Below are positions 38,090 to 45,284 of a stretch of DNA of 50,423 bases, piece by piece. The stretch lies in contig CBFHQW010000001.1 of the NCBI GenBank assembly GCA_965658085.1, forward strand, positions 1-50,423, read 5' to 3'. Below the pieces are notes generated by a model. The model was given only the letters and a program-made list of their open reading frames with translations. It ran no database searches and had not been told where the DNA came from. The stretch's first letter is position 1, and each line of letters starts with the position of its first letter. The position numbers were made by a program, and so were the translations under genes. This DNA is from Candidatus Thalassarchaeum sp. Its GTDB lineage: Archaea; Thermoplasmatota; Poseidoniia; Poseidoniales; Thalassarchaeaceae.

Positions 38090-38767
38090 TCAGGTCTCTA
38101 CGTCGATGACAGGCTGTAGTACCAATTCGTAGGTCATAGCGGTCCAAGTGATATCGTACTCCTCGTCAGAATCGACGATGGAACCTAGAGGGGATGGCGG
38201 AGAATTGATTTCAGCTGTAATCGTGGCAGCCCAGGTGCCTCTTCCTGTGCCACCATCCATCCACATTTCGTGCAGTTCCGATTCACTCATCCCGGTAGCC
38301 GTGTAGTTCGCTCCAGTGTAGTTCTGGGTGACATCCCATCGAAATGTGAAACCTGAGTCTCCTCCTGAGCAAGGCCCGTCAGCGGATTCATCTACGAACT
38401 CACCCTCGACCTGGCTGACGTCACTGCTGCCCTCTGCTCTGTCAGTGAAACCGGGTCCGGGGTCGTCGTTGTCATTGCAATCCACATCCAACTCGACATA
38501 TCCGATATTCAACTCAGACATGACGTCGAAGAAGGAGTCATGAGTATCTCCATCTCCTAATATTTGGGATTCCTGCATTATTATCGGAGTCTCAGCGAAT
38601 CCGACTTCCCAGTCACCAGAGGGGCCCGAAGAACCTCCTCCAATCATGTCGTCATCAAGCAATGAAGGCATCAACTGGAAGTACAACGGAAAGGCCAGCA
38701 TGAAAGCCACACTTATCCCGAGGATTCTCATCTTCCTCGGGGTGTTTACGAGGTCCTCAAAGTCCAT
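38090..38767 (-). CDS. N-terminally anchored extracytoplasmic acidic protein, function unknown
   Basis: TM helix ILGISVAFMLAFPLYF followed by an acidic soluble domain. Its stop abuts the stop of the convergent GTPase gene. Confidence 0.45.
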   Translation of the reverse strand: MDFEDLVNTPRKMRILGISVAFMLAFPLYFQLMPSLLDDDMIGGGSSGPSGDWEVGFAETPIIMQESQILGDGDTHDSFFDVMSELNIGYVELDVDCNDNDDPGPGFTDRAEGSSDVSQVEGEFVDESADGPCSGGDSGFTFRWDVTQNYTGANYTATGMSESELHEMWMDGGTGRGTWAATITAEINSPPSPLGSIVDSDEEYDITWTAMTYELVLQPVIDVET

Positions 38768-38875
38768 GCTACTCCCGTACCGCCGTCAGCACGCCCCCTA
38801 TCAAACACTCTCATTCTGCGTTTGTTACAGGTTCATTCACGAACTTATGTTTACTTCAGATACGAATTGCATGGT

Positions 38876-39991
38876 CTAGTGGTTGTGCTCACCACCGCCT
38901 TCACCCGCCGCCTCATCCCAGCACGAGTCTTCAGGGTCGCTAGCCGCCCCCTCCTCCTTCAGACAGGGGTGGTGGTTGGTGAAGACGTCGAATTCGGTTA
39001 GCCAAGGCTCGATAATCCATGCATGTGTCATCCAGTAATCGTCCAGATACACATTGGTTCCATCCCGATAATGGCAGTCCTCATCGCTGATGTCCTCGCC
39101 GACCGCTTGGAAACTGGAGTTGGTGAAACAGAGCGTTTCGTGGACATGCCACCAGTCGTTGTCACCAGGGAACCCAGAGGGAGGGTTCTCTGAGTCTGTC
39201 TGCACGTACCATGCGAACCCGACGAGTTCCGCATCCTGCGCGTTGCTGGCGTACATCAAGAACTCCGGGCGTTCGAAATCGAAATCATTGTCCATCCTAG
39301 TGCCTGAGAACTCGGGGTTGAGGGGGTCGAAGCCGTCATTCTCCATCGAGAAGTCACCTAGCCGGACGTGATGCGTGCCCATGCCCATGACGTAGTCCAC
39401 CGCCATGTGGAATCCGTCGGCCTCGGCCTCGGCAAGTGTGGGCCACTGCATTGCCCACGCGATCACGTCTTCGAACTGCTCTGAAACATCGATACAGTCC
39501 TGCCATGACAGCATCCCCTTCGTCATCCCGTGATAGGCGGGGGCGAGGTGGTCCCCGTGCTCTTGGCCATCGCCGTGACCGGTGCCAGTCGATTGGCACC
39601 ACCACGGGCGCATCGACATGTCAACCTCGGAATCCGCGCAACCGTCGCTGGCCGCAGTTTCATTGGCAGGAGTGGAGGGGCATGAGTCATCAGCGTCAAC
39701 GAGACCATCGCCATCACCGTCCCTCTCAGTCGCACTGCATCCGCTCTCGTCCACATCCTCGCTAATCGGGGTCTGCGTGCACATATCGTCCGCGTCCGAG
39801 ATATCATCCCCATCACCGTCCTTCTGGCTCGCCGAACAGCCGTTTTCATCTACTACTTCGCCGATAGGGGTCAGCGTGCACAGGTCCAGCACGTCAGAGA
39901 CACCATCGACATCCTCGTCTACAGGTCCCATGCAACCGGAGAGTGAACTGCCTAGCAGTAGCAGGAATAACAACACAGCTCTAAGATTCAC
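38876..39991 (-). CDS. Lipoprotein with thrombospondin type-3-like Ca-binding repeats and a His-rich C-terminal domain
   Basis: Lipobox LSGC. Repeats of D.DGD..SD..D.C (DVDGVSDVLDLC, DGDGDDISDADDMC, DGDGDGLVDADDSC). The C-terminal domain carries GMGTHH and WWHVHE. Confidence 0.6.
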   Translation of the reverse strand: MNLRAVLLFLLLLGSSLSGCMGPVDEDVDGVSDVLDLCTLTPIGEVVDENGCSASQKDGDGDDISDADDMCTQTPISEDVDESGCSATERDGDGDGLVDADDSCPSTPANETAASDGCADSEVDMSMRPWWCQSTGTGHGDGQEHGDHLAPAYHGMTKGMLSWQDCIDVSEQFEDVIAWAMQWPTLAEAEADGFHMAVDYVMGMGTHHVRLGDFSMENDGFDPLNPEFSGTRMDNDFDFERPEFLMYASNAQDAELVGFAWYVQTDSENPPSGFPGDNDWWHVHETLCFTNSSFQAVGEDISDEDCHYRDGTNVYLDDYWMTHAWIIEPWLTEFDVFTNHHPCLKEEGAASDPEDSCWDEAAGEGGGEHNH

Positions 39992-40024
39992 ACTTCGAAG
40001 AACGTACGATGGGTGATAAATCCA

Positions 40025-40528
40025 TCATTCAAACGAATCACTTCCTTTCCAGTCATTGATATCTACTCCTTCACCTTGGAACAGCACCCTTGAGCGTCTA
40101 TATTCTGGGAGAAAATACCCTATCATGGAACGCTCACCAAAACTCCATTTCCAAGGGCAGCGGGGGAGCGAATCACTCCATTCTCTCAATAATGAACTCC
40201 AACTTTCCAGTTCCATCCGGCGCGGAATCTCAAATGATACTGTGGATAGTCTCCCAGCCGAACCCGGAACGTAGGACCATGAGCGTATGGAGAGGCCGGC
40301 AGCCTCGCCATCTTCCACGACCAGTCCGATTACCCTCGCCTGCCTTGATATTGGGACGATGATGGCCCATCTGTGGACCATCCGCGACTCCTGAATCCGC
40401 CTCATATCCCATCCGTGCGCCTCTCCGATCTCGCGTAAAGCGCGGATGGCATCAGTAGGGGCGATGCTGACTGGAATCTCAAGTAGCCGGCTAGACGCCA
40501 TCGCCTCGGCCTCTAGGCTCTCGCCCAT
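40025..40528 (-). CDS. Hypothetical cytoplasmic protein
   Basis: 167-aa ORF downstream of rpl12 on the same strand. No motif recognised. Confidence 0.4.
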   Translation of the reverse strand: MGESLEAEAMASSRLLEIPVSIAPTDAIRALREIGEAHGWDMRRIQESRMVHRWAIIVPISRQARVIGLVVEDGEAAGLSIRSWSYVPGSAGRLSTVSFEIPRRMELESWSSLLREWSDSLPRCPWKWSFGERSMIGYFLPEYRRSRVLFQGEGVDINDWKGSDSFE

Positions 40529-40925: not shown

Positions 40926-41873
40926 TTACTCCTCTTCCCCCTCTTCCACTCCGTCCGGTGCTTCAGCACCAGAATCCGAGTCAGCCGCATCGGAGGCGAC
41001 GGCGTCAGCGCCCGAGAGCGCTGAGGAATCTAATTGGCCAGAGATGGCCATAGCATGCGCGTTCGCGCGCGTAATGAACAGTGAAACAGTGTCATCATTG
41101 ACCACTCCAGCTTCTATGGCGACAGACATCGCCTCGCTGCTGGCCTTGGACAGCAGCGTGGGCATAGTGGTCGTTGAGAACCATCGTGTGTTACATGCCA
41201 AGTTGAAGGCGCCCGAGGTTGCTGAGATAACATCGTTCTTGAAACCGTCTAGATCGAGATTTAGGGATGAGGCAGGGAATACGATTCCACCCTCTACAGC
41301 TCCAGTCAGGATTAGCCCGATTTCTATCGGAGTTATTCCCAGTTTGGCCAGCATGATCCCAAGGTCGCCGGAGATAATTTCACCCTCGTTGACGACGGTA
41401 ACAGTCTTCTGGATGGCGACCTTGCCCTTGTCTATCTTGGCTGGTATGCCCACTGCGTTGAACTCACCCACGATAGGTCCCGGTCCGAACTCGGTCGGAC
41501 CTTTTTCGACCACAATGTCTGAGGGGGCCTTCTCACCCTCCTTAGCCGCGCGACCCTGACGGGTTTTATCGAGTTCAGCAAACAATTCGAATGAATTCAG
41601 ACTCTCAGAATGCACTATACAGGGCTGGACAGCTCCATCGAGCAGTGAGTTGAGACTATCTTCGGGCAAGCCGGCCTGTTCCCAAGCAATCCTAATCAGC
41701 GTCTTCTTGGCCATCGTCATCGTCATCCTGTCGCGCAGCGAGCTGCGCATGTCCAGCATGTTCCCGGCGGGTACTCCACCGATATCCACAATCCCGACGA
41801 TGCCATCGTTGGAGAGTATCTCTGTGAGTTCGGACACCCGGTCCTTCTTCCAAGGCGCCACCTTGGCCATCAT
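40926..41873 (-). CDS. rpl10: Ribosomal protein uL10 (P0)
   Basis: MMAKVAPWKKDRVSEL... with an acidic C-terminal tail. ATGA overlap with the rpl1 stop (41870-41873). Confidence 0.9.
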   Translation of the reverse strand: MMAKVAPWKKDRVSELTEILSNDGIVGIVDIGGVPAGNMLDMRSSLRDRMTMTMAKKTLIRIAWEQAGLPEDSLNSLLDGAVQPCIVHSESLNSFELFAELDKTRQGRAAKEGEKAPSDIVVEKGPTEFGPGPIVGEFNAVGIPAKIDKGKVAIQKTVTVVNEGEIISGDLGIMLAKLGITPIEIGLILTGAVEGGIVFPASSLNLDLDGFKNDVISATSGAFNLACNTRWFSTTTMPTLLSKASSEAMSVAIEAGVVNDDTVSLFITRANAHAMAISGQLDSSALSGADAVASDAADSDSGAEAPDGVEEGEEE

Positions 41874-42514
41874 TCGATTACCTCCACCTTGACGGAGGGC
41901 CCCATTGAGGTCTTGATGTAGCACGAGCGGATGTTCCCAGCTCCCCTCTCTAGTTTGCCAGTGACCCGGTTCCAGATTGCCATCGCGTTAGTGGTGAGGT
42001 CGTCGACCCCCTGCTCACGCGAGCCCATTGCGGTGTGGAAGGTGATACGGTCTCGTGATCTGACAATCGCAGTATCCTTGAGCCCGGCGGCAATCATTCC
42101 AGGGTCTAGATTAGGAGGGACTGGGCGAGGCATCTTGCCACGCGGCCCTAGTACAACACCGAGGAATCTTCCTACGGTTCCCATATGGGGTATCTCGGAC
42201 AAGAAGAAGTCACTCTTGTTGGCCATTTTGCGGGCTTGCTGTCGGTTACCACCCAAATCTTCGATGGTGGATGGATCTATGACGTTAATTCCGGCGGCCT
42301 TGGCTTTGGTTGCCATCTCGCCGCCAGCAAACATCGTGATGCGTATCGGTTTGCCCCTTCCGGTAGGCAGTCGAACCTCTTCCTGAATCCTGTTCGTTGG
42401 ATTCTTCAGATCAACGTCCCTGAGCGTGAAAGCAATTTCGACTGACTCGACGAACTTGCGCTCCGGCGATTCATCGAGAGCCTGTTGAATCGCGCTCTGA
42501 ATATTTTCTTGCAT
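41870..42514 (-). CDS. rpl1: Ribosomal protein uL1
   Basis: 214 aa, with ...RKFVESVEIAFTLRDVDLK... and GKMP.P typical of uL1. SD GGAGGTGG upstream. Confidence 0.9.
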   Translation of the reverse strand: MQENIQSAIQQALDESPERKFVESVEIAFTLRDVDLKNPTNRIQEEVRLPTGRGKPIRITMFAGGEMATKAKAAGINVIDPSTIEDLGGNRQQARKMANKSDFFLSEIPHMGTVGRFLGVVLGPRGKMPRPVPPNLDPGMIAAGLKDTAIVRSRDRITFHTAMGSREQGVDDLTTNAMAIWNRVTGKLERGAGNIRSCYIKTSMGPSVKVEVIE

Positions 42515-42567: not shown

Positions 42568-42846
42568 TCAACTGAAATGTTCGCTAAACCTACCCTCACT
42601 CATCGCTTGTAAAGCATCCTTTGGTGCCATACCCTCGACATTCACTCTCATTGAGACACAAGTGCCCATAATCTCACGGCTTCGGGCGTATAGATTGGCA
42701 CCCGTAAGCCGGTCCTTCTGGTCCTCTGCCAACTTCTTGATCTGATCCATAGTCAGGTTCTCAGAAGACTCCTCCCAGGAGCCGTTGCACGTCTTCTGTC
42801 CGAGCATCTGAATCACCTTGTGTGGCGTTTCATTACGTGCAGACAT
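42568..42846 (-). CDS. rpl11: Ribosomal protein uL11, C-terminal (rRNA-binding) domain only
   Basis: ENLTMDQIKKLAEDQKDRLTGANLYARSREIMGTCVSMRVNVEG aligns to the archaeal L11 C-terminal domain (GNLTLEQVIKIAKMKKD...LGTCGSMGVTVEG). There is no GPPLGPALG N-terminal domain. SD AGGAGGA and an in-frame TAA lie just upstream of the ATG. Confidence 0.8.
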   Translation of the reverse strand: MSARNETPHKVIQMLGQKTCNGSWEESSENLTMDQIKKLAEDQKDRLTGANLYARSREIMGTCVSMRVNVEGMAPKDALQAMSEGRFSEHFS

Positions 42847-42932: not shown

Positions 42933-43799
42933 CTACTCAACGCGCTGGGTGACCCTAACTTGGTCGGCGCGTACTGTGAGAGCGACTGGCACTGCTGCTT
43001 CGAAGAGCTCGACAGTAACCTCTTCTTTCGACTCTGTCACACGGGTCACACGGGCCGCTTGACCTCGGAAGGCGCCGCCGTGAATCTCCACGATGCTACC
43101 CTCTTCGATGCCGGCAGTCGCCGCCTTGGGCTCAAGATAGGGAAGCACATCGCCTAGTGGCGACTCACCGCCGAGTACCTTGCGACAGTTCTTCATCGGC
43201 GTTGTGGAGACACCGACGCGACCGATGAGCTTCTCGACGTGATGTAGAGCTGAGGCTTCGACGAAGATGTAGCCACGCATGAAGTGGGGGCTGAGGACGC
43301 CGAAGATCTCGTCCTGAATTTCTTTGAGCGAACCAGTACCTGAGAGCCGGGCACGAACCTCCCTAGCTACGTTCTGCTCTTGACCAATGGAGGTCTTGAG
43401 GATGTAGAGGTAGGAAGCGACGTCGCCGTACATATCACGCAGTTGGGGGGTGGTGTAATCTCTCTCCTGAATGGTTCCCGGGTCAATCCACTCGCAGCCC
43501 TTGTACAGGCCACGAGCATCGACCTCCTCGACAGAGCTGACGAAGAGAAGTGGCGTGACTTCATTGAGTCGATTTTCGTAGGCTAGACCGCGGGCGCCGC
43601 CCGAACGTACGTACTGCAGATTGTCAGCCTCAATACCTGTGACCTCAGTTATCCTGGCCACCACTGCATCTAGATCCTCAGGGTCACCGATACCATAGAT
43701 ACCGTCCCAGGCGCCAGGGAAGTCTGCGACTCCATCGGCGCGCTGCATGAGCAACACTCTCTCTCCGTTTCGGATGTAGACCGTGAACGCATCTGACAT
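42933..43799 (-). CDS. spt5: Transcription elongation factor Spt5 (NGN + KOW) with an N-terminal Nudix-fold extension
   Basis: Residues ~131-288: LYILKTSIGQEQNVA...GYIFVEA (NGN), then GSIVEIHGGAFRGQAARVTRV...EVTVEL (KOW). Residues 1-~122: VYIRNGERVLLMQRA...PGAWDGIYGIGDPEDLDAVVARITEVTGIE...CEWIDP (Nudix-like). Confidence 0.85.
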   Translation of the reverse strand: MSDAFTVYIRNGERVLLMQRADGVADFPGAWDGIYGIGDPEDLDAVVARITEVTGIEADNLQYVRSGGARGLAYENRLNEVTPLLFVSSVEEVDARGLYKGCEWIDPGTIQERDYTTPQLRDMYGDVASYLYILKTSIGQEQNVAREVRARLSGTGSLKEIQDEIFGVLSPHFMRGYIFVEASALHHVEKLIGRVGVSTTPMKNCRKVLGGESPLGDVLPYLEPKAATAGIEEGSIVEIHGGAFRGQAARVTRVTESKEEVTVELFEAAVPVALTVRADQVRVTQRVE

Positions 43800-43809
43800 T
43801 TTTCTTACC

Positions 43810-44073
43810 TCACTCTGTTAGCCAATTGAAGAAGGATGGGAGGGCACTATCCATCATCCACAGCATCGCGAATCCGATTGCGCCGAGGATAAACATCCCT
43901 ATGCCACAAACGATTACGGTCTGGCGAAACTCCTGCTTGGATGGCTTCCTTGCCATCTTTAGAATACGAGCATAAGAACCGGTTTGAAGGCTGCGAACAC
44001 GCCCTTCAATCTCGTCCTGCCAACTCTGAACAGTCTCCTCGATGGGACCTATATTGGAACTCTCGATAGCCAT
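43810..44073 (-). CDS. secE: Preprotein translocase subunit SecE (Sec61 gamma)
   Basis: ARKPSKQEFRQTVIVCGIGMFILGAIGFAMLWMM, in the conserved position before spt5. ATG 44073 is preferred to the longer ORF-track start. Confidence 0.8.
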   Translation of the reverse strand: MAIESSNIGPIEETVQSWQDEIEGRVRSLQTGSYARILKMARKPSKQEFRQTVIVCGIGMFILGAIGFAMLWMMDSALPSFFNWLTE

Positions 44074-44165
44074 CACTAACCCTCGAAGCGACCCGGCGAC
44101 CAACAGACTCCATTTAAGCACGCCGGGCGAGCCCTAAGGGGCTCGAAATCAAATCAGAGTAATAA

Positions 44166-45284
44166 TCAATTCACGAACTCGACAGTTCGGTCCCTGAGGT
44201 TGCGTATCTGAGTGTGTCGCGAAGCTCCGTCTATCTGCTCACTCTTCACGCCAGTCAGCACGAGCAGGACCCTGATATTGTCCCCCATGGTGTCATCAGT
44301 AGTAGCGCCCCAGATGATTCGAGCATAGGGATTCACCTTTTCGCGAATCAGCTTGGCGCACAGTTCGGCGTCTCCAAGTGACAGAGTAGGCCCGCCGACC
44401 ACATTTACCAGCGCTCCTCGGGCATCGGAAATGTCTATGTCGAGCAGAGGCGATTCTAGAGCCTCCTCGGTGGCTTTCTCGGCCCTACCTTCACCGTGAG
44501 CCTCTCCGAGTCCAATGACCGCCACTCCTCCCCCGTTTTCCATCACGGAGCGCAGGTCTTGGAAGTCGAGGTTGACAACACCCTCCTTAGAAAGCATCTC
44601 AGAGACTCCTGAAATACTCCTCATCAACAATTCGTCTGCGACGCGGAATGCAGCATCGAGTGGGAGGTCACGAACCCCCTCGATCTCGAGAAGACGCTCG
44701 TTAGGCAGTACGACCACTGTGTCGCACACCTCCCGCAATCTTTCCAAGCCCCATTCTGCATTCTGCTTCCGCAGCGCCCCCTCTGACATGAAGGGATAAC
44801 TCACCACAGCGATGGTCAAAGCTCCGGCCGATTTGGCCAACCGAGCAACTACATGCGCACTCCCTGTCCCAGTGCCACCTCCCAGTCCCGCTGTGATGAA
44901 TGCCAAATCGCAGTTTTCAATCTCCGTCTTGAGCGCGCGTTCAGACTCGTATGCAGCCTGCTCGCCTTTCTCCGGGTCGCCACCAGCGCCCCTACCTCTG
45001 GCAGAGCGCCCAATTAGCACCTTGTCCCGGACATTGACCCTCAACAGGTGTTGGGCGTCAGTGTTGACCGCCAGCCCCCTGACATATGTCCCGTCGAACA
45101 CACCTTCGAGCTCTAGCCTTGCTACGGTGTTGGAACCGCACCCTCCACAGCCGAACACACGTATCTTGGGCTGCAGTGATTTGAGTAGGTTCTTCAGTTC
45201 CGCATCGTTCTTCCTGTCGTTCAAGTCGTTAGGTATGACATTGTCATCTCTGTCAGCCAGAGCCCTCTCGACGATGAAGTCCAC
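44166..45284 (-). CDS. ftsZ: Cell division GTPase FtsZ
   Basis: GCGGCGSN and the tubulin signature GLGGGTGTGS. GTG start at 45284. Confidence 0.92.
   Translation of the reverse strand: MDFIVERALADRDDNVIPNDLNDRKNDAELKNLLKSLQPKIRVFGCGGCGSNTVARLELEGVFDGTYVRGLAVNTDAQHLLRVNVRDKVLIGRSARGRGAGGDPEKGEQAAYESERALKTEIENCDLAFITAGLGGGTGTGSAHVVARLAKSAGALTIAVVSYPFMSEGALRKQNAEWGLERLREVCDTVVVLPNERLLEIEGVRDLPLDAAFRVADELLMRSISGVSEMLSKEGVVNLDFQDLRSVMENGGGVAVIGLGEAHGEGRAEKATEEALESPLLDIDISDARGALVNVVGGPTLSLGDAELCAKLIREKVNPYARIIWGATTDDTMGDNIRVLLVLTGVKSEQIDGASRHTQIRNLRDRTVEFVN

What the first reader, a model, noticed from the sequence alone, without database searches (positions are those of the whole stretch)
42933..43799. 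Spt5 fused to an N-terminal Nudix-fold domain with a degenerate Nudix box
Archaeal Spt5 is normally about 150 aa (NGN + KOW). Here a continuous 288-aa ORF places about 122 extra residues (43434-43799) in front of a canonical NGN domain. The extension has the Nudix-fold layout. It runs from beta strands (VYIRNGERVLLMQRA) through PGAW.G to a box region, and ends with CEWIDP. The box GIGDPEDLDAVVARITEVTGI (43632-43694) deviates from G-x5-E-x7-R-E-U-x-E-E-x-G-U: only one Glu of the RE..EE set is retained. Nudix enzymes remove 5' pyrophosphate and NAD-type caps. Spt5 sits on the RNA polymerase clamp next to the RNA exit path, and in eukaryotes Spt5 recruits capping enzymes. A Nudix module tethered to Spt5 could therefore act on, or merely bind, nascent 5' ends co-transcriptionally. 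An internal ATG at 43433 could also produce a normal-length Spt5. I am not aware of this fusion having been described.
Basis: partly seen in the sequence, partly recalled or inferred. Interest (0 to 1): 0.8.

Follow-up and report, generated by a model that had tools for sequence, protein, structure and literature searches.

The report
Spt5 carrying an inactive Nudix domain
In Marine Group II archaea, which are abundant in the ocean, the universal transcription elongation factor Spt5 carries an extra N-terminal domain with the fold of a Nudix hydrolase but without its catalytic residues; the fusion is conserved, appears undescribed, and its role on RNA polymerase is unknown.

Summary
ORF 42933-43799(-) encodes a 288-aa protein. 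Residues 130-288 are a complete archaeal Spt5 (NGN+KOW), sitting in the usual ftsZ-secE-spt5-rpl11-rpl1-rpl10 cluster. Residues 1-128 are a highly diverged Nudix-fold domain. Evidence: Pfam NUDIX just above threshold; hhalign 99.4% to box-intact Nudix relatives; AlphaFold pLDDT 90; Foldseek TM 0.82 to a Methanosarcina MutT-related protein.

The fusion is not an assembly artefact. It is full length in 78 of the 80 retained GTDB species-genome loci (154 stretches matched), in both families of Poseidoniales, and in single-cell and long-read assemblies. The domain is under purifying selection (dN/dS 0.07). Translation signals point to codon 1, and the internal Met123 is a non-start Leu codon in several lineages.

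Four of the five acidic catalytic positions of its active relatives are replaced in all 306 fused sequences (E to R49, E to Y99, E to V/S/C/A, and a shortened loop). Canonical hydrolysis, including decapping, is therefore unlikely.

The most likely role is a non-catalytic binding or regulatory module held beside the RNAP clamp, comparable to the Nudix effector domain of NrtR. The ligand or partner is unknown. I found no paper describing it. It is a new variant of a known kind and of moderate to high interest.

The parts
42933..43799 (-). Whole ORF, 288 aa plus stop: Nudix-fold domain fused to Spt5 (NGN+KOW).
   Evidence: An identical protein is on 17 contigs. The ORF is full length in 78 of the 80 loci kept from GTDB species genomes.
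43807..43811 (-). Shine-Dalgarno-like GAGGT, 7 nt upstream of the ATG at 43799. It overlaps the secE stop codon (43810-43812).
   Evidence: Sequence. Of 89 related loci, 83 have an anti-SD match of at least 5 nt upstream of codon 1; the common motifs (GAGGTG, GAGGTGA, AGGTGA, GGTGAT) lie 3-7 nt from it.
43416..43799 (-). Residues 1-128: diverged, strongly acidic Nudix-fold domain (beta-grasp sandwich; helix 43-54 is the former Nudix helix; C-terminal helix 118-127).
   Evidence: Pfam 21.6-22.0 bits. hhalign 99.4%. AF2 pLDDT 89.9. Foldseek 3grn TM 0.82. dN/dS 0.07. Median net charge -13.
43632..43694 (-). Degenerate Nudix box, residues 36-56 (GIGDPEDLDAVVARITEVTGI). The Gx5E loop is shortened by 3 residues. 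MutT R52 becomes A48, E53 becomes R49, E56 is kept as E52, and E57 becomes V53.
   Evidence: Alignments. Column counts over 306 fused proteins: R49 in 304, E52 in 257 with Q in 36, and position 53 is V/S/C/A.
43503..43505 (-). Tyr99 codon. It replaces a Glu that is invariant in the box-intact relatives (motif N-W-E).
   Evidence: Y in 306 of 306 sequences. Relatives have an invariant E98. The columns are aligned.
43431..43433 (-).
   Evidence: ATG in 75 of 76 MGIIb species genomes and TTA in one. Elsewhere it is CTG (L085, L086), TTA (L087) or TTG (L083, L088-L091). No usable SD motif. No dip in synonymous diversity upstream.
43200..43412 (-). NGN domain, residues about 130-200. I133, Y177 and F179 correspond to the RNAP-clamp-binding residues A4, Y42 and L44 of M. 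jannaschii Spt5. E181 corresponds to E46, which is held by Spt4.
   Evidence: PF03439, pairwise alignment, residue roles from PMC2896526. I133, Y177 and E181 are invariant in 47 diverse sequences.
43008..43100 (-). KOW motif, residues 234-264.
   Evidence: PF00467 23.0 bits against a 22.3 cut-off. Aligns to the KOW of solved Spt5 structures.
43810..44121 (-). secE, directly upstream in the same orientation.
   Evidence: PF00584. Found upstream in 78 of 82 related loci.
42568..42846 (-). rpl11 (92 aa, C-terminal RNA-binding domain only), directly downstream, followed by rpl1 and rpl10.
   Evidence: PF00298 only. Neighbours identified.

Best explanation
The ORF is the organism's ordinary, housekeeping Spt5. 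The organism is a Thalassarchaeaceae (Marine Group II) archaeon, and the fusion is shared by both families of Poseidoniales, which suggests a Nudix protein was fused to the Spt5 N-terminus before the two families split.

Shown: the added domain keeps the Nudix fold and is under purifying selection. It has lost the metal-binding glutamates, with R49, Y99 and D32 fixed in or next to the former active site. It is strongly acidic. It joins NGN strand beta-1 through only about 3 residues after its last helix.

Inferred: it does not hydrolyse anything. It is carried onto RNA polymerase by the NGN domain and sits beside the clamp coiled-coil and the upstream edge of the transcription bubble. There it acts as a non-catalytic binding module. 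The most likely partner is a phosphorylated nucleotide-type effector held in the remodelled pocket; the alternative is a protein partner. This would add a regulatory input or an extra contact to elongation, in the way the degenerate Nudix effector domain works in bacterial NrtR regulators. The ligand or partner is not identified.
For: Real and fixed: the ORF is full length in 78 of the 80 best loci among 154 matching stretches in GTDB species genomes, including single-cell assemblies and a 1.6-Mb long-read contig. It is also present in Poseidoniaceae at 304-330 aa.

Translated and selected: dN/dS is 0.07 for residues 2-122, against 0.013 for the Spt5 core, over 175 genome pairs. An SD motif precedes codon 1 in 83 of 89 loci.

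The long form suffices: the Met123 position is CTG or TTA in several lineages, and L087 has no Met in the segment shown before the NGN strand. No second Spt5 is in the window.

Nudix fold and homology.

Loss of catalytic residues across the whole family, while the closest relatives keep RE(I/L)xEE and the downstream Glu.

The former active site is the best-conserved part of the domain (invariant R20, W31, D32, G33, G36, R49, T54, G55, Y99).

Intact Spt5 determinants (I133, Y177, F179 for the clamp; E181 for Spt4).

Precedent: NrtR, where a perturbed Nudix box goes with effector binding and no activity (PMC2330246).
Against: There is no direct evidence that anything binds. The invariant R49, Y99 and D32 could simply plug and stabilise a pocket that no longer holds metal, which would be a purely structural role.

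E52 survives in 257 of 306 sequences, so a non-canonical catalytic arrangement cannot be formally excluded.

The placement on RNAP is inferred from the sequence position of the fusion point and from published complexes of other archaea. It was not modelled. The full-length AlphaFold model was poor in the NGN region (pLDDT 36-60), and no coordinates were available to test domain packing or pocket geometry.

A net charge of -13 argues against non-specific nucleic-acid binding but says nothing positive about a ligand.
Confidence: 0.55

Rival explanations
1. Purely structural appendage. The dead Nudix domain binds no effector. It stabilises the NGN domain or strengthens and extends the Spt5-RNAP contact, as proposed for the DII insert of Thermotoga maritima NusG. 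It might partly take over the stabilising role of Spt4.
For: The junction is very short (helix 118-127, then strand 131-136), and the MYGxVxS junction segment is invariant. Both suggest rigid packing against NGN. The domain evolves about 5 times faster than the Spt5 core, as expected for a scaffold. [quoted passage not shown] Spt4 is reported mainly to stabilise NGN (PMC2896526).
Against: The strongest conservation is at the former catalytic positions, not spread evenly over a surface. The Glu that Spt4 holds (E181) is invariant, which suggests Spt4 is still used. Whether Poseidoniales have Spt4 could not be checked; none is in the window.
Confidence: 0.25
2. Active enzyme. The domain still hydrolyses a pyrophosphate bond, for example in ppp- or NAD-capped nascent RNA or in a damaged nucleotide, using a non-canonical set of catalytic residues.
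For: Structural neighbours include RppH, BdRppH, NudC and Ap4A hydrolases. A profile search of PDB sequences puts NudC first, but only at E=0.008. E52 is kept in 84% of sequences and D32 is invariant.
Against: The Gx5E loop is shortened. E53 becomes Arg, E57 becomes V/S/C/A, and the downstream catalytic Glu becomes Tyr in essentially all 306 sequences. The closest relatives keep all of these residues. E52 is Gln in 36 sequences. A perturbed box abolishes activity in NrtR/Slr1690, and restoring it raises the rate 600-fold. The structural matches are generic to the fold.
Confidence: 0.08
3. Two products. The working elongation factor is a normal-length Spt5 (166 aa) started at the internal ATG 43433. 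The long form is a minor or regulatory isoform.
For: Met123 is present in 296 of 306 sequences. It lies 7 residues before the position that aligns with Met1 of canonical Spt5. Some of the Leu replacements are TTG, a possible start codon.
Against: The codon is CTG or TTA in at least four lineages. No SD motif at a workable spacing: 56 of 89 loci have none, and the rest lie 0-1 nt from the codon as a by-product of the coding sequence. There is no drop in synonymous diversity and no TATA-like element upstream. The whole junction segment is invariant, so the conservation of Met123 is not special. The N-domain's dN/dS of 0.07 shows the long form is made and matters.
Confidence: 0.05
4. Artefact: an assembly join or a gene-calling error has merged a separate Nudix gene with spt5.
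For: None found.
Against: The same continuous frame occurs on hundreds of independent contigs from different samples, assemblers and technologies, including single-cell genomes and long-read contigs. There is no stop codon or frameshift between the domains.
Confidence: 0.01

Closest known systems
Archaeal Spt5 (TIGR00405; e.g. P. furiosus 3P8B, M. jannaschii 4ZN1, T. kodakarensis 9BCT)
   Same: Residues 130-288 are a complete NGN+KOW Spt5, with the clamp-binding residues and the residue held by Spt4. The gene sits in the canonical secE-spt5-rpl11-rpl1-rpl10 cluster.
   Different: It has an extra 128-residue folded domain before NGN. It also has small lineage-specific insertions in NGN (6 and 7 residues in the alignments). 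Ile replaces Ala at the A4 position.
NrtR family (bacterial Nudix-related transcriptional regulators)
   Same: An N-terminal Nudix-like domain with a perturbed Nudix box and no appreciable hydrolase activity serves as an effector-binding module attached to a transcription factor (PMC2330246). This is the best functional analogy.
   Different: The NrtR partner domain is a winged-helix DNA binder acting at promoters. Here the partner is the universal elongation factor bound to RNAP. There is no close sequence relationship, and effector binding is untested here.
Thermotoga maritima / Aquifex NusG with the extra domain DII
   Same: A NusG/Spt5 family member that acquired an additional folded domain, thought to aid recruitment and stabilise the RNAP complex (PMC7819879).
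   Different: DII is an insertion inside NGN, is bacterial, and is not a Nudix fold. The present domain is an N-terminal fusion.
Small archaeal Nudix proteins (128-138 aa) and haloarchaeal Nudix-eIF-2B-domain fusions (HVO_1934 type)
   Same: These are the closest sequence relatives of the N-domain: phmmer E 1e-9 to 1e-6 and hhalign 99.4%. They share the R20, W31, G36, G55 and W104 framework and, in MGIIb, the C-terminal T-x-P-x-L helix motif (naming).
   Different: They keep an intact Nudix box and the downstream Glu. None of them is joined to Spt5.
RNA 5'-end Nudix enzymes RppH, NudC and Dcp2
   Same: Same fold. RppH and BdRppH are among the best structural matches (TM 0.70-0.74).
   Different: Those enzymes need the intact box, which is absent here. 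The similarity is that of the fold in general; a MutT-related protein scores higher.
Non-catalytic Nudix domains: MutY/MUTYH C-terminal domain and TRPM2 NUDT9-H
   Same: Nudix folds reused as recognition modules without hydrolysis (my own knowledge). MUTYH appears among the structural matches (ranks 19-21 and 38).
   Different: The MutY domain binds DNA and is not acidic. This domain carries a net charge of about -13. The TM scores are lower (0.60-0.63).
Acidic N-terminal region of eukaryotic Spt5
   Same: A strongly acidic segment immediately N-terminal to NGN (domain description). Some Poseidoniales variants add a further acidic tail (P0121, P0137).
   Different: The eukaryotic region is disordered and unrelated in sequence. 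This one is a folded Nudix domain. The resemblance is in charge and position only.

Membership tests
Archaeal Spt5 / NusG family | NGN domain | tested here: met
   PF03439 E=7e-10. TIGR00405 110.2 bits against a 69.95 cut-off, covering profile positions 1-142 of 145. Solved Spt5 structures match at E about 1e-22.
Archaeal Spt5 / NusG family | C-terminal KOW domain | tested here: met
   PF00467 23.0 bits against a 22.3 cut-off, residues 234-264. Aligned to the KOW of 3P8B and 9BCT.
Archaeal Spt5 / NusG family | Hydrophobic pocket residues that bind the RNAP clamp coiled-coil (Mja A4, Y42, L44) and the Glu held by Spt4 (E46) | tested here: met
   I133, Y177, F179 and E181 align with them. I133, Y177 and E181 are invariant. 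Residue roles come from PMC2896526. Binding itself was not tested.
Archaeal Spt5 / NusG family | Conserved gene neighbourhood secE-spt5-rpl11-rpl1-rpl10 | tested here: met
   The same order is seen in related loci.
Archaeal Spt5 / NusG family | Binds RNAP and stimulates elongation | not testable with these tools
   Needs biochemistry.
Nudix superfamily (fold and homology) | Alpha/beta/alpha Nudix fold | tested here: met
   AF2 pLDDT 89.9, pTM 0.84. Foldseek gives 390 PDB matches at E<=1e-3; the best are 3grn at TM 0.82 / 2.4 A, then NudI, RppH and Ap4A hydrolases.
Nudix superfamily (fold and homology) | Significant sequence or profile similarity to Nudix proteins | tested here: met
   PF00293 21.6-22.0 bits against a gathering score of 21.1; this is marginal, and only 4 of 19 family members reach E<=0.01. 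hhalign to box-intact relatives gives 99.4%, E=2.5e-21. phmmer hits at E 1e-9 to 1e-6.
Nudix hydrolases (active enzymes) | Nudix box G-x5-E-x7-R-E-U-x-E-E-x-G-U with its metal-binding glutamates | tested here: not met
   The loop is shortened. R becomes A48, E becomes R49, the second E of the EE pair becomes V53, and only E52 is kept (Gln in 36 of 306). The downstream Glu becomes Y99 in 306 of 306.
Nudix hydrolases (active enzymes) | Pyrophosphohydrolase activity | not testable with these tools
   Needs enzyme assays. Predicted to be absent.
RNA-decapping Nudix enzymes (RppH, NudC, Dcp2) | Intact catalytic box plus 5'-end or NAD recognition elements | tested here: not met
   The box is degenerate. 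Similarity to RppH and NudC is at the level of the fold.
NrtR-type Nudix-related regulators | Degenerate Nudix effector domain | tested here: met
   Degenerate box. The same criterion is used for NrtR.
NrtR-type Nudix-related regulators | C-terminal winged-helix DNA-binding domain | tested here: not met
   The C-terminal part is NGN+KOW. This is an analogy only, not membership.
NrtR-type Nudix-related regulators | Binds ADP-ribose or another effector | not testable with these tools
   Needs binding assays.

The most novel reading that the evidence does not exclude
The dead Nudix domain is a sensor mounted on the elongating RNA polymerase. It would bind a nucleotide-derived signal (such as ADP-ribose, NAD(H), Ap4A or an alarmone) or a capped or triphosphorylated RNA 5' end in its remodelled pocket. 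Because it is rigidly joined to the NGN strand that forms the clamp-binding pocket, binding would change how Spt5 holds the clamp. Elongation, pausing or termination across the genome would then respond directly to metabolic state. That would be effector control of the one universal transcription factor, in one of the ocean's most abundant archaeal groups.
Probability: 0.15. Interest if true: 0.85.

Novelty: new variant of a known kind. Interest (0 to 1): 0.6.

Why it matters
Spt5/NusG is the only transcription factor shared by all life, and in archaea its two-domain layout is treated as invariant. Here an entire order, the Poseidoniales (Marine Group II), has fixed a third, folded domain at the end of the protein that forms the RNAP-binding pocket. 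These are among the most abundant archaea in the surface ocean.

The domain is a pseudo-enzyme that standard annotation misses: only 4 of 19 members reach the Pfam model at E<=0.01. If it binds an effector or a partner, it would be a new route for regulating elongation in archaea. It would also be a natural counterpart to Nudix-based sensors such as NrtR.

Even if it is only structural, it shows how this conserved factor can be remodelled. It also gives a clean lineage marker for Poseidoniales. The question can be tested directly with recombinant protein.

Tried and rejected
- **Assembly join or gene-calling error.** Rejected. The same frame occurs on many independent contigs, including single-cell and long-read assemblies.
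- **Internal promoter or start at Met123.** I computed synonymous-codon diversity along 76 aligned genes and found no dip upstream of codon 123. A scan for SD motifs found none at a usable spacing, against 83 of 89 loci at codon 1. I also looked up the DNA of Leu-123 variants: CTG, TTA and TTG. An internal start is not a conserved feature, though it cannot be excluded for this particular organism.
- **Second, short Spt5 or a separate Nudix paralogue in the window.** None found.
- **Spt4 in the window** (zinc-ribbon pattern scan). None found.
- **Histone gene in the window or loci**, to test the idea of a eukaryote-like acidic N-terminus. None found. Uninformative.
- **IPP isomerase.** The NCBIfam hits were weak (E about 0.01-0.07, far below the cut-offs). 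Dismissed as generic Nudix-fold similarity.
- **Profile search of PDB sequences with the N-domain family.** Only marginal hits (NudC E=0.008). Sequence alone does not single out a subfamily.
- **Full-length AlphaFold model.** The NGN region had low confidence (pLDDT 36-60), so it says nothing about how the domains pack. No coordinates are returned in any case.
- **Taxonomic limit of the fusion beyond Poseidoniales** (for example Marine Group III). Could not be determined, because the top-120 hit lists were filled by Marine Group II sequences.
Full report
**What is in the sequence.** The minus strand carries one uninterrupted ORF from 43799 down to 42933, 288 codons plus a stop. The box GIGDPEDLDAVVARITEVTGI is residues 36-56 (43632-43694). 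CEWIDP is residues 102-107. Met123 is the ATG starting at 43433.

The gene sits in the standard archaeal cluster ftsZ (44166-45284), secE (43810-44121), spt5, rpl11 (42568-42846), rpl1 (41870-42514) and rpl10 (40926-41924), all on the minus strand. The nearest genomes are Marine Group II euryarchaeote MED-G34 and UBA623, at 99% protein identity. These belong to Candidatus Thalassarchaeaceae, order Poseidoniales, phylum Thermoplasmatota.

**The C-terminal 159 residues are a complete Spt5.** Pfam finds Spt5-NGN (residues 131-193, E=7e-10) and KOW (234-264, 23.0 bits against a 22.3 cut-off). The NCBIfam equivalog TIGR00405 scores 110 bits against a 69.95 cut-off and covers 142 of its 145 positions. 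Solved Spt5 chains of 147-152 aa align from query residue 130-131 onward at E about 1e-22.

In a pairwise alignment, Met1 of M. jannaschii Spt5 falls on Tyr130. Its numbering agrees with the residues named in PMC2896526. [quoted passage not shown] They correspond here to I133, Y177, F179 and E181. I133, Y177 and E181 are invariant in a diverse family alignment. Nothing that defines Spt5 is missing, and about 128 residues are extra.

**The extra residues are a Nudix-fold domain.**
- Scanned alone, residues 1-122 match Pfam NUDIX at 21.6 bits, just above the gathering score of 21.1.
- Only 4 of 19 diverse family members reach E<=0.01, and the full-length protein does not report the domain. This explains why every database record calls the protein plain Spt5 or NusG with NGN/KOW only.
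- An exhaustive phmmer search of 1.84 billion representative proteins gives 100 hits at E<=1e-3. Apart from fragments and other fused Spt5 proteins, the hits checked with Pfam are bona fide Nudix proteins at E 1e-9 to 1e-6. They include 128-138-aa stand-alone proteins and haloarchaeal Nudix-eIF-2B-domain fusions (the Haloferax example is named).
- A profile of the fused N-domains against a profile of 15 such relatives gives 99.4% probability, E=2.5e-21, over 113 columns.
- AlphaFold2 on residues 1-128 gives pLDDT 89.9 and pTM 0.84. In the full-length model the same region scores 81-95.
- Foldseek against the PDB returns 390 matches at E<=1e-3. The 50 listed are Nudix-fold proteins: best TM 0.82 at 2.4 A to the Methanosarcina mazei MutT-related protein 3grn, then NudI, RppH, BdRppH, Ap4A hydrolases, NudC, the MUTYH C-terminal domain and IPP isomerase.

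**The catalytic machinery is gone, in every member.** In the 15 box-intact relatives the acidic positions are invariant or nearly so: the Glu of G-x5-E, the Glu of R-E, both Glu of E-E, and a downstream Glu in an N-W-E motif.

| Position in active relatives | State in 306 fused proteins |
|---|---|
| G-x5-E loop | shortened, by 3 residues here and more elsewhere |
| Arg of R-E | A48 here (A/N/E/T/D in the family) |
| Glu of R-E | R49 (304 of 306) |
| first Glu of E-E | kept as E52 in 257; Gln in 36 |
| second Glu of E-E | V/S/C/A |
| downstream Glu | Y99 (306 of 306) |

D32, next to the box glycine, is a new invariant. In NrtR proteins a comparably perturbed signature goes with no appreciable ADP-ribose pyrophosphatase activity, and restoring it in Slr1690 raised the rate 600-fold (PMC2330246). 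Canonical metal-dependent hydrolysis, including RNA decapping, is therefore unlikely. This step is an inference from sequence, not an assay.

**The fusion is real, old and selected.**
- A scan of one genome per GTDB species found 154 matching stretches. The best 80 are 73-99% identical, and 78 of them cover residues 1-288. They include single-cell assemblies and long contigs of up to 1.6 Mb.
- The other family of the order, Poseidoniaceae (including Ca. Poseidonia), has the same architecture at 304-330 aa. Identity to this protein is about 50% overall and 37-45% in the N-domain.
- A rare clade close to Poseidoniaceae adds a further 85-residue acidic, C2H2-like extension (P0137).
- Over 175 genome pairs with dS between 0.1 and 1.5, dN/dS is 0.07 for the N-domain and 0.013 for the Spt5 core. 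The domain is translated and constrained, but evolves about five times faster than the core.

**Which protein is made.** Upstream of codon 1 this window has GAGGT, 7 nt from the ATG. Of 89 related loci, 83 have an anti-Shine-Dalgarno match of at least 5 nt there, the common motifs lying 3-7 nt from the start. Upstream of codon 123, 56 of 89 loci have no match at all. The rest have 4-5-nt matches, most of them 0-1 nt from the codon, and these are by-products of the Arg-Asp/Glu codons.

Synonymous-codon diversity shows no dip upstream of codon 123 that would mark an embedded promoter or ribosome-binding site: 0.84-0.92 there against a gene mean of 0.87. Met123 is Leu in 10 of 306 sequences. At the DNA level that codon is CTG in two lineages, TTA in two (L087 and one of the 76 species genomes) and TTG in two. 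L087 has no Met in the segment shown before the NGN strand. The whole junction segment M-Y-G-x-V-x-S is invariant or nearly so, so the conservation of Met123 is not special. The long form must therefore be functional. A short isoform is not a conserved feature, although it cannot be excluded in this particular organism.

**Where the domain would sit.** The last Nudix helix (118-127) runs into NGN strand beta-1 (131-136) with about three residues between them. The strand contains I133, the equivalent of the clamp-pocket residue A4. In solved archaeal complexes the NGN domain binds the clamp coiled-coil and bridges the cleft. Residues next to this strand and in the 64-68 loop touch the non-template strand or upstream duplex (Tko residues 12, 13, 68; Pfu H12, R64, H65, R67). 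The KOW domain sits at the RNA exit with FttA.

By inference, the Nudix domain lies beside the clamp tip and the upstream fork of the bubble, not at the RNA exit. I could not model this. The domain is strongly acidic: median net charge -13 and pI 4.2. That is -10 per 100 residues, against -0.6 for the Spt5 core and about -4 for other proteins in the window. This argues against non-specific nucleic-acid binding.

**Most likely mechanism.** I rate a non-catalytic binding or regulatory module on Spt5 as most likely (0.55). The fold is kept, and the former active site is the most conserved part of the domain. The substitutions there are fixed, not random: Glu to Arg and Glu to Tyr could hold a phosphate without metal. 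The closest working analogy is the degenerate Nudix effector domain of NrtR transcription factors.

The main rival (0.25) is a purely structural role like that proposed for the DII insert of Thermotoga NusG. In that case R49, Y99 and D32 would merely plug the empty metal site. An active non-canonical hydrolase (0.08), a functional short isoform (0.05) and an artefact (0.01) are much less likely.

**Novelty.** Five full-text searches found no description of a Nudix-Spt5 or Nudix-NusG fusion. The term sets were Spt5/Nudix/archaea, Poseidoniales/Spt5, NusG/Nudix/fusion, Marine Group II/Nudix, and NusG/Spt5 domain architectures. The one Marine Group II paper that mentions Nudix refers to an unrelated gene. 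A 2021 review of NusG diversity lists only the Thermotoga DII domain as an extra domain. Automatic structure-based annotations in databases I cannot query may already flag it. I class it as a new variant of a known kind: a universal factor with an added pseudo-enzyme domain, fixed in a whole, ecologically dominant order.

Noticed in passing
window 42568-42846 (-); also L081 5560-5838, L083 4982-5257 and the other Marine Group II loci: Ribosomal protein L11 is only 91-93 aa and matches only the C-terminal RNA-binding domain (PF00298). The N-terminal factor-binding domain is absent, and there is no room for it in the 87-nt gap after spt5. Most related loci show the same 92-aa frame, and gene calls on other contigs give 91-93 aa. 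An order-wide L11 lacking its N-terminal domain would be unusual and deserves its own check.
   Followed up: partly
L081 4112-5474 and L082 3162-4524 (protein P0137, 385 aa): A rare clade close to Poseidoniaceae has a further ~85-residue N-terminal extension in front of the Nudix domain. The extension is very acidic and contains a C2H2-like CxxC...HxxxH motif. Its gene call overlaps by 44 nt an 82-aa upstream ORF with faint zf-C2H2 hits. secE is not upstream in these contigs. A Tara fragment (P0121) also has a long acidic tail before the Nudix domain.
   Followed up: partly
P0147, P0159, P0163 (haloarchaea, e.g. Halobellus WP_336024400.1): [quoted passage not shown] Their function appears uncharacterised.
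   Followed up: no
alignment A1; Poseidoniaceae sequences such as P0135: Poseidoniaceae (MGIIa) Spt5 has a 9-residue insertion (DLDMENAHGLF-like) at the Nudix-NGN junction. It also has a longer basic insertion in NGN (GRSGGRDPSARRGINQS) where this window's protein has GRVGVST. Canonical Spt5 has neither.
   Followed up: no
window residues 130-230 in model mcc8c1022219c: AlphaFold2 gave very low confidence (pLDDT 36-60) for the NGN region in the full-length model, despite strong HMM matches to NGN. The likely cause is the shallow, lineage-restricted alignment with lineage-specific insertions.
   Followed up: no
protein P0056: One copy of this archaeal Spt5 (95% identical) is labelled 'Arenicellales bacterium' in NCBI. 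This is presumably a mis-binned contig in a bacterial MAG.
   Followed up: no
window 38090-40528 (-): Three consecutive ORFs downstream of the ribosomal cluster (167, 371 and 225 aa) have no Pfam match at E<=1e-3.
   Followed up: no
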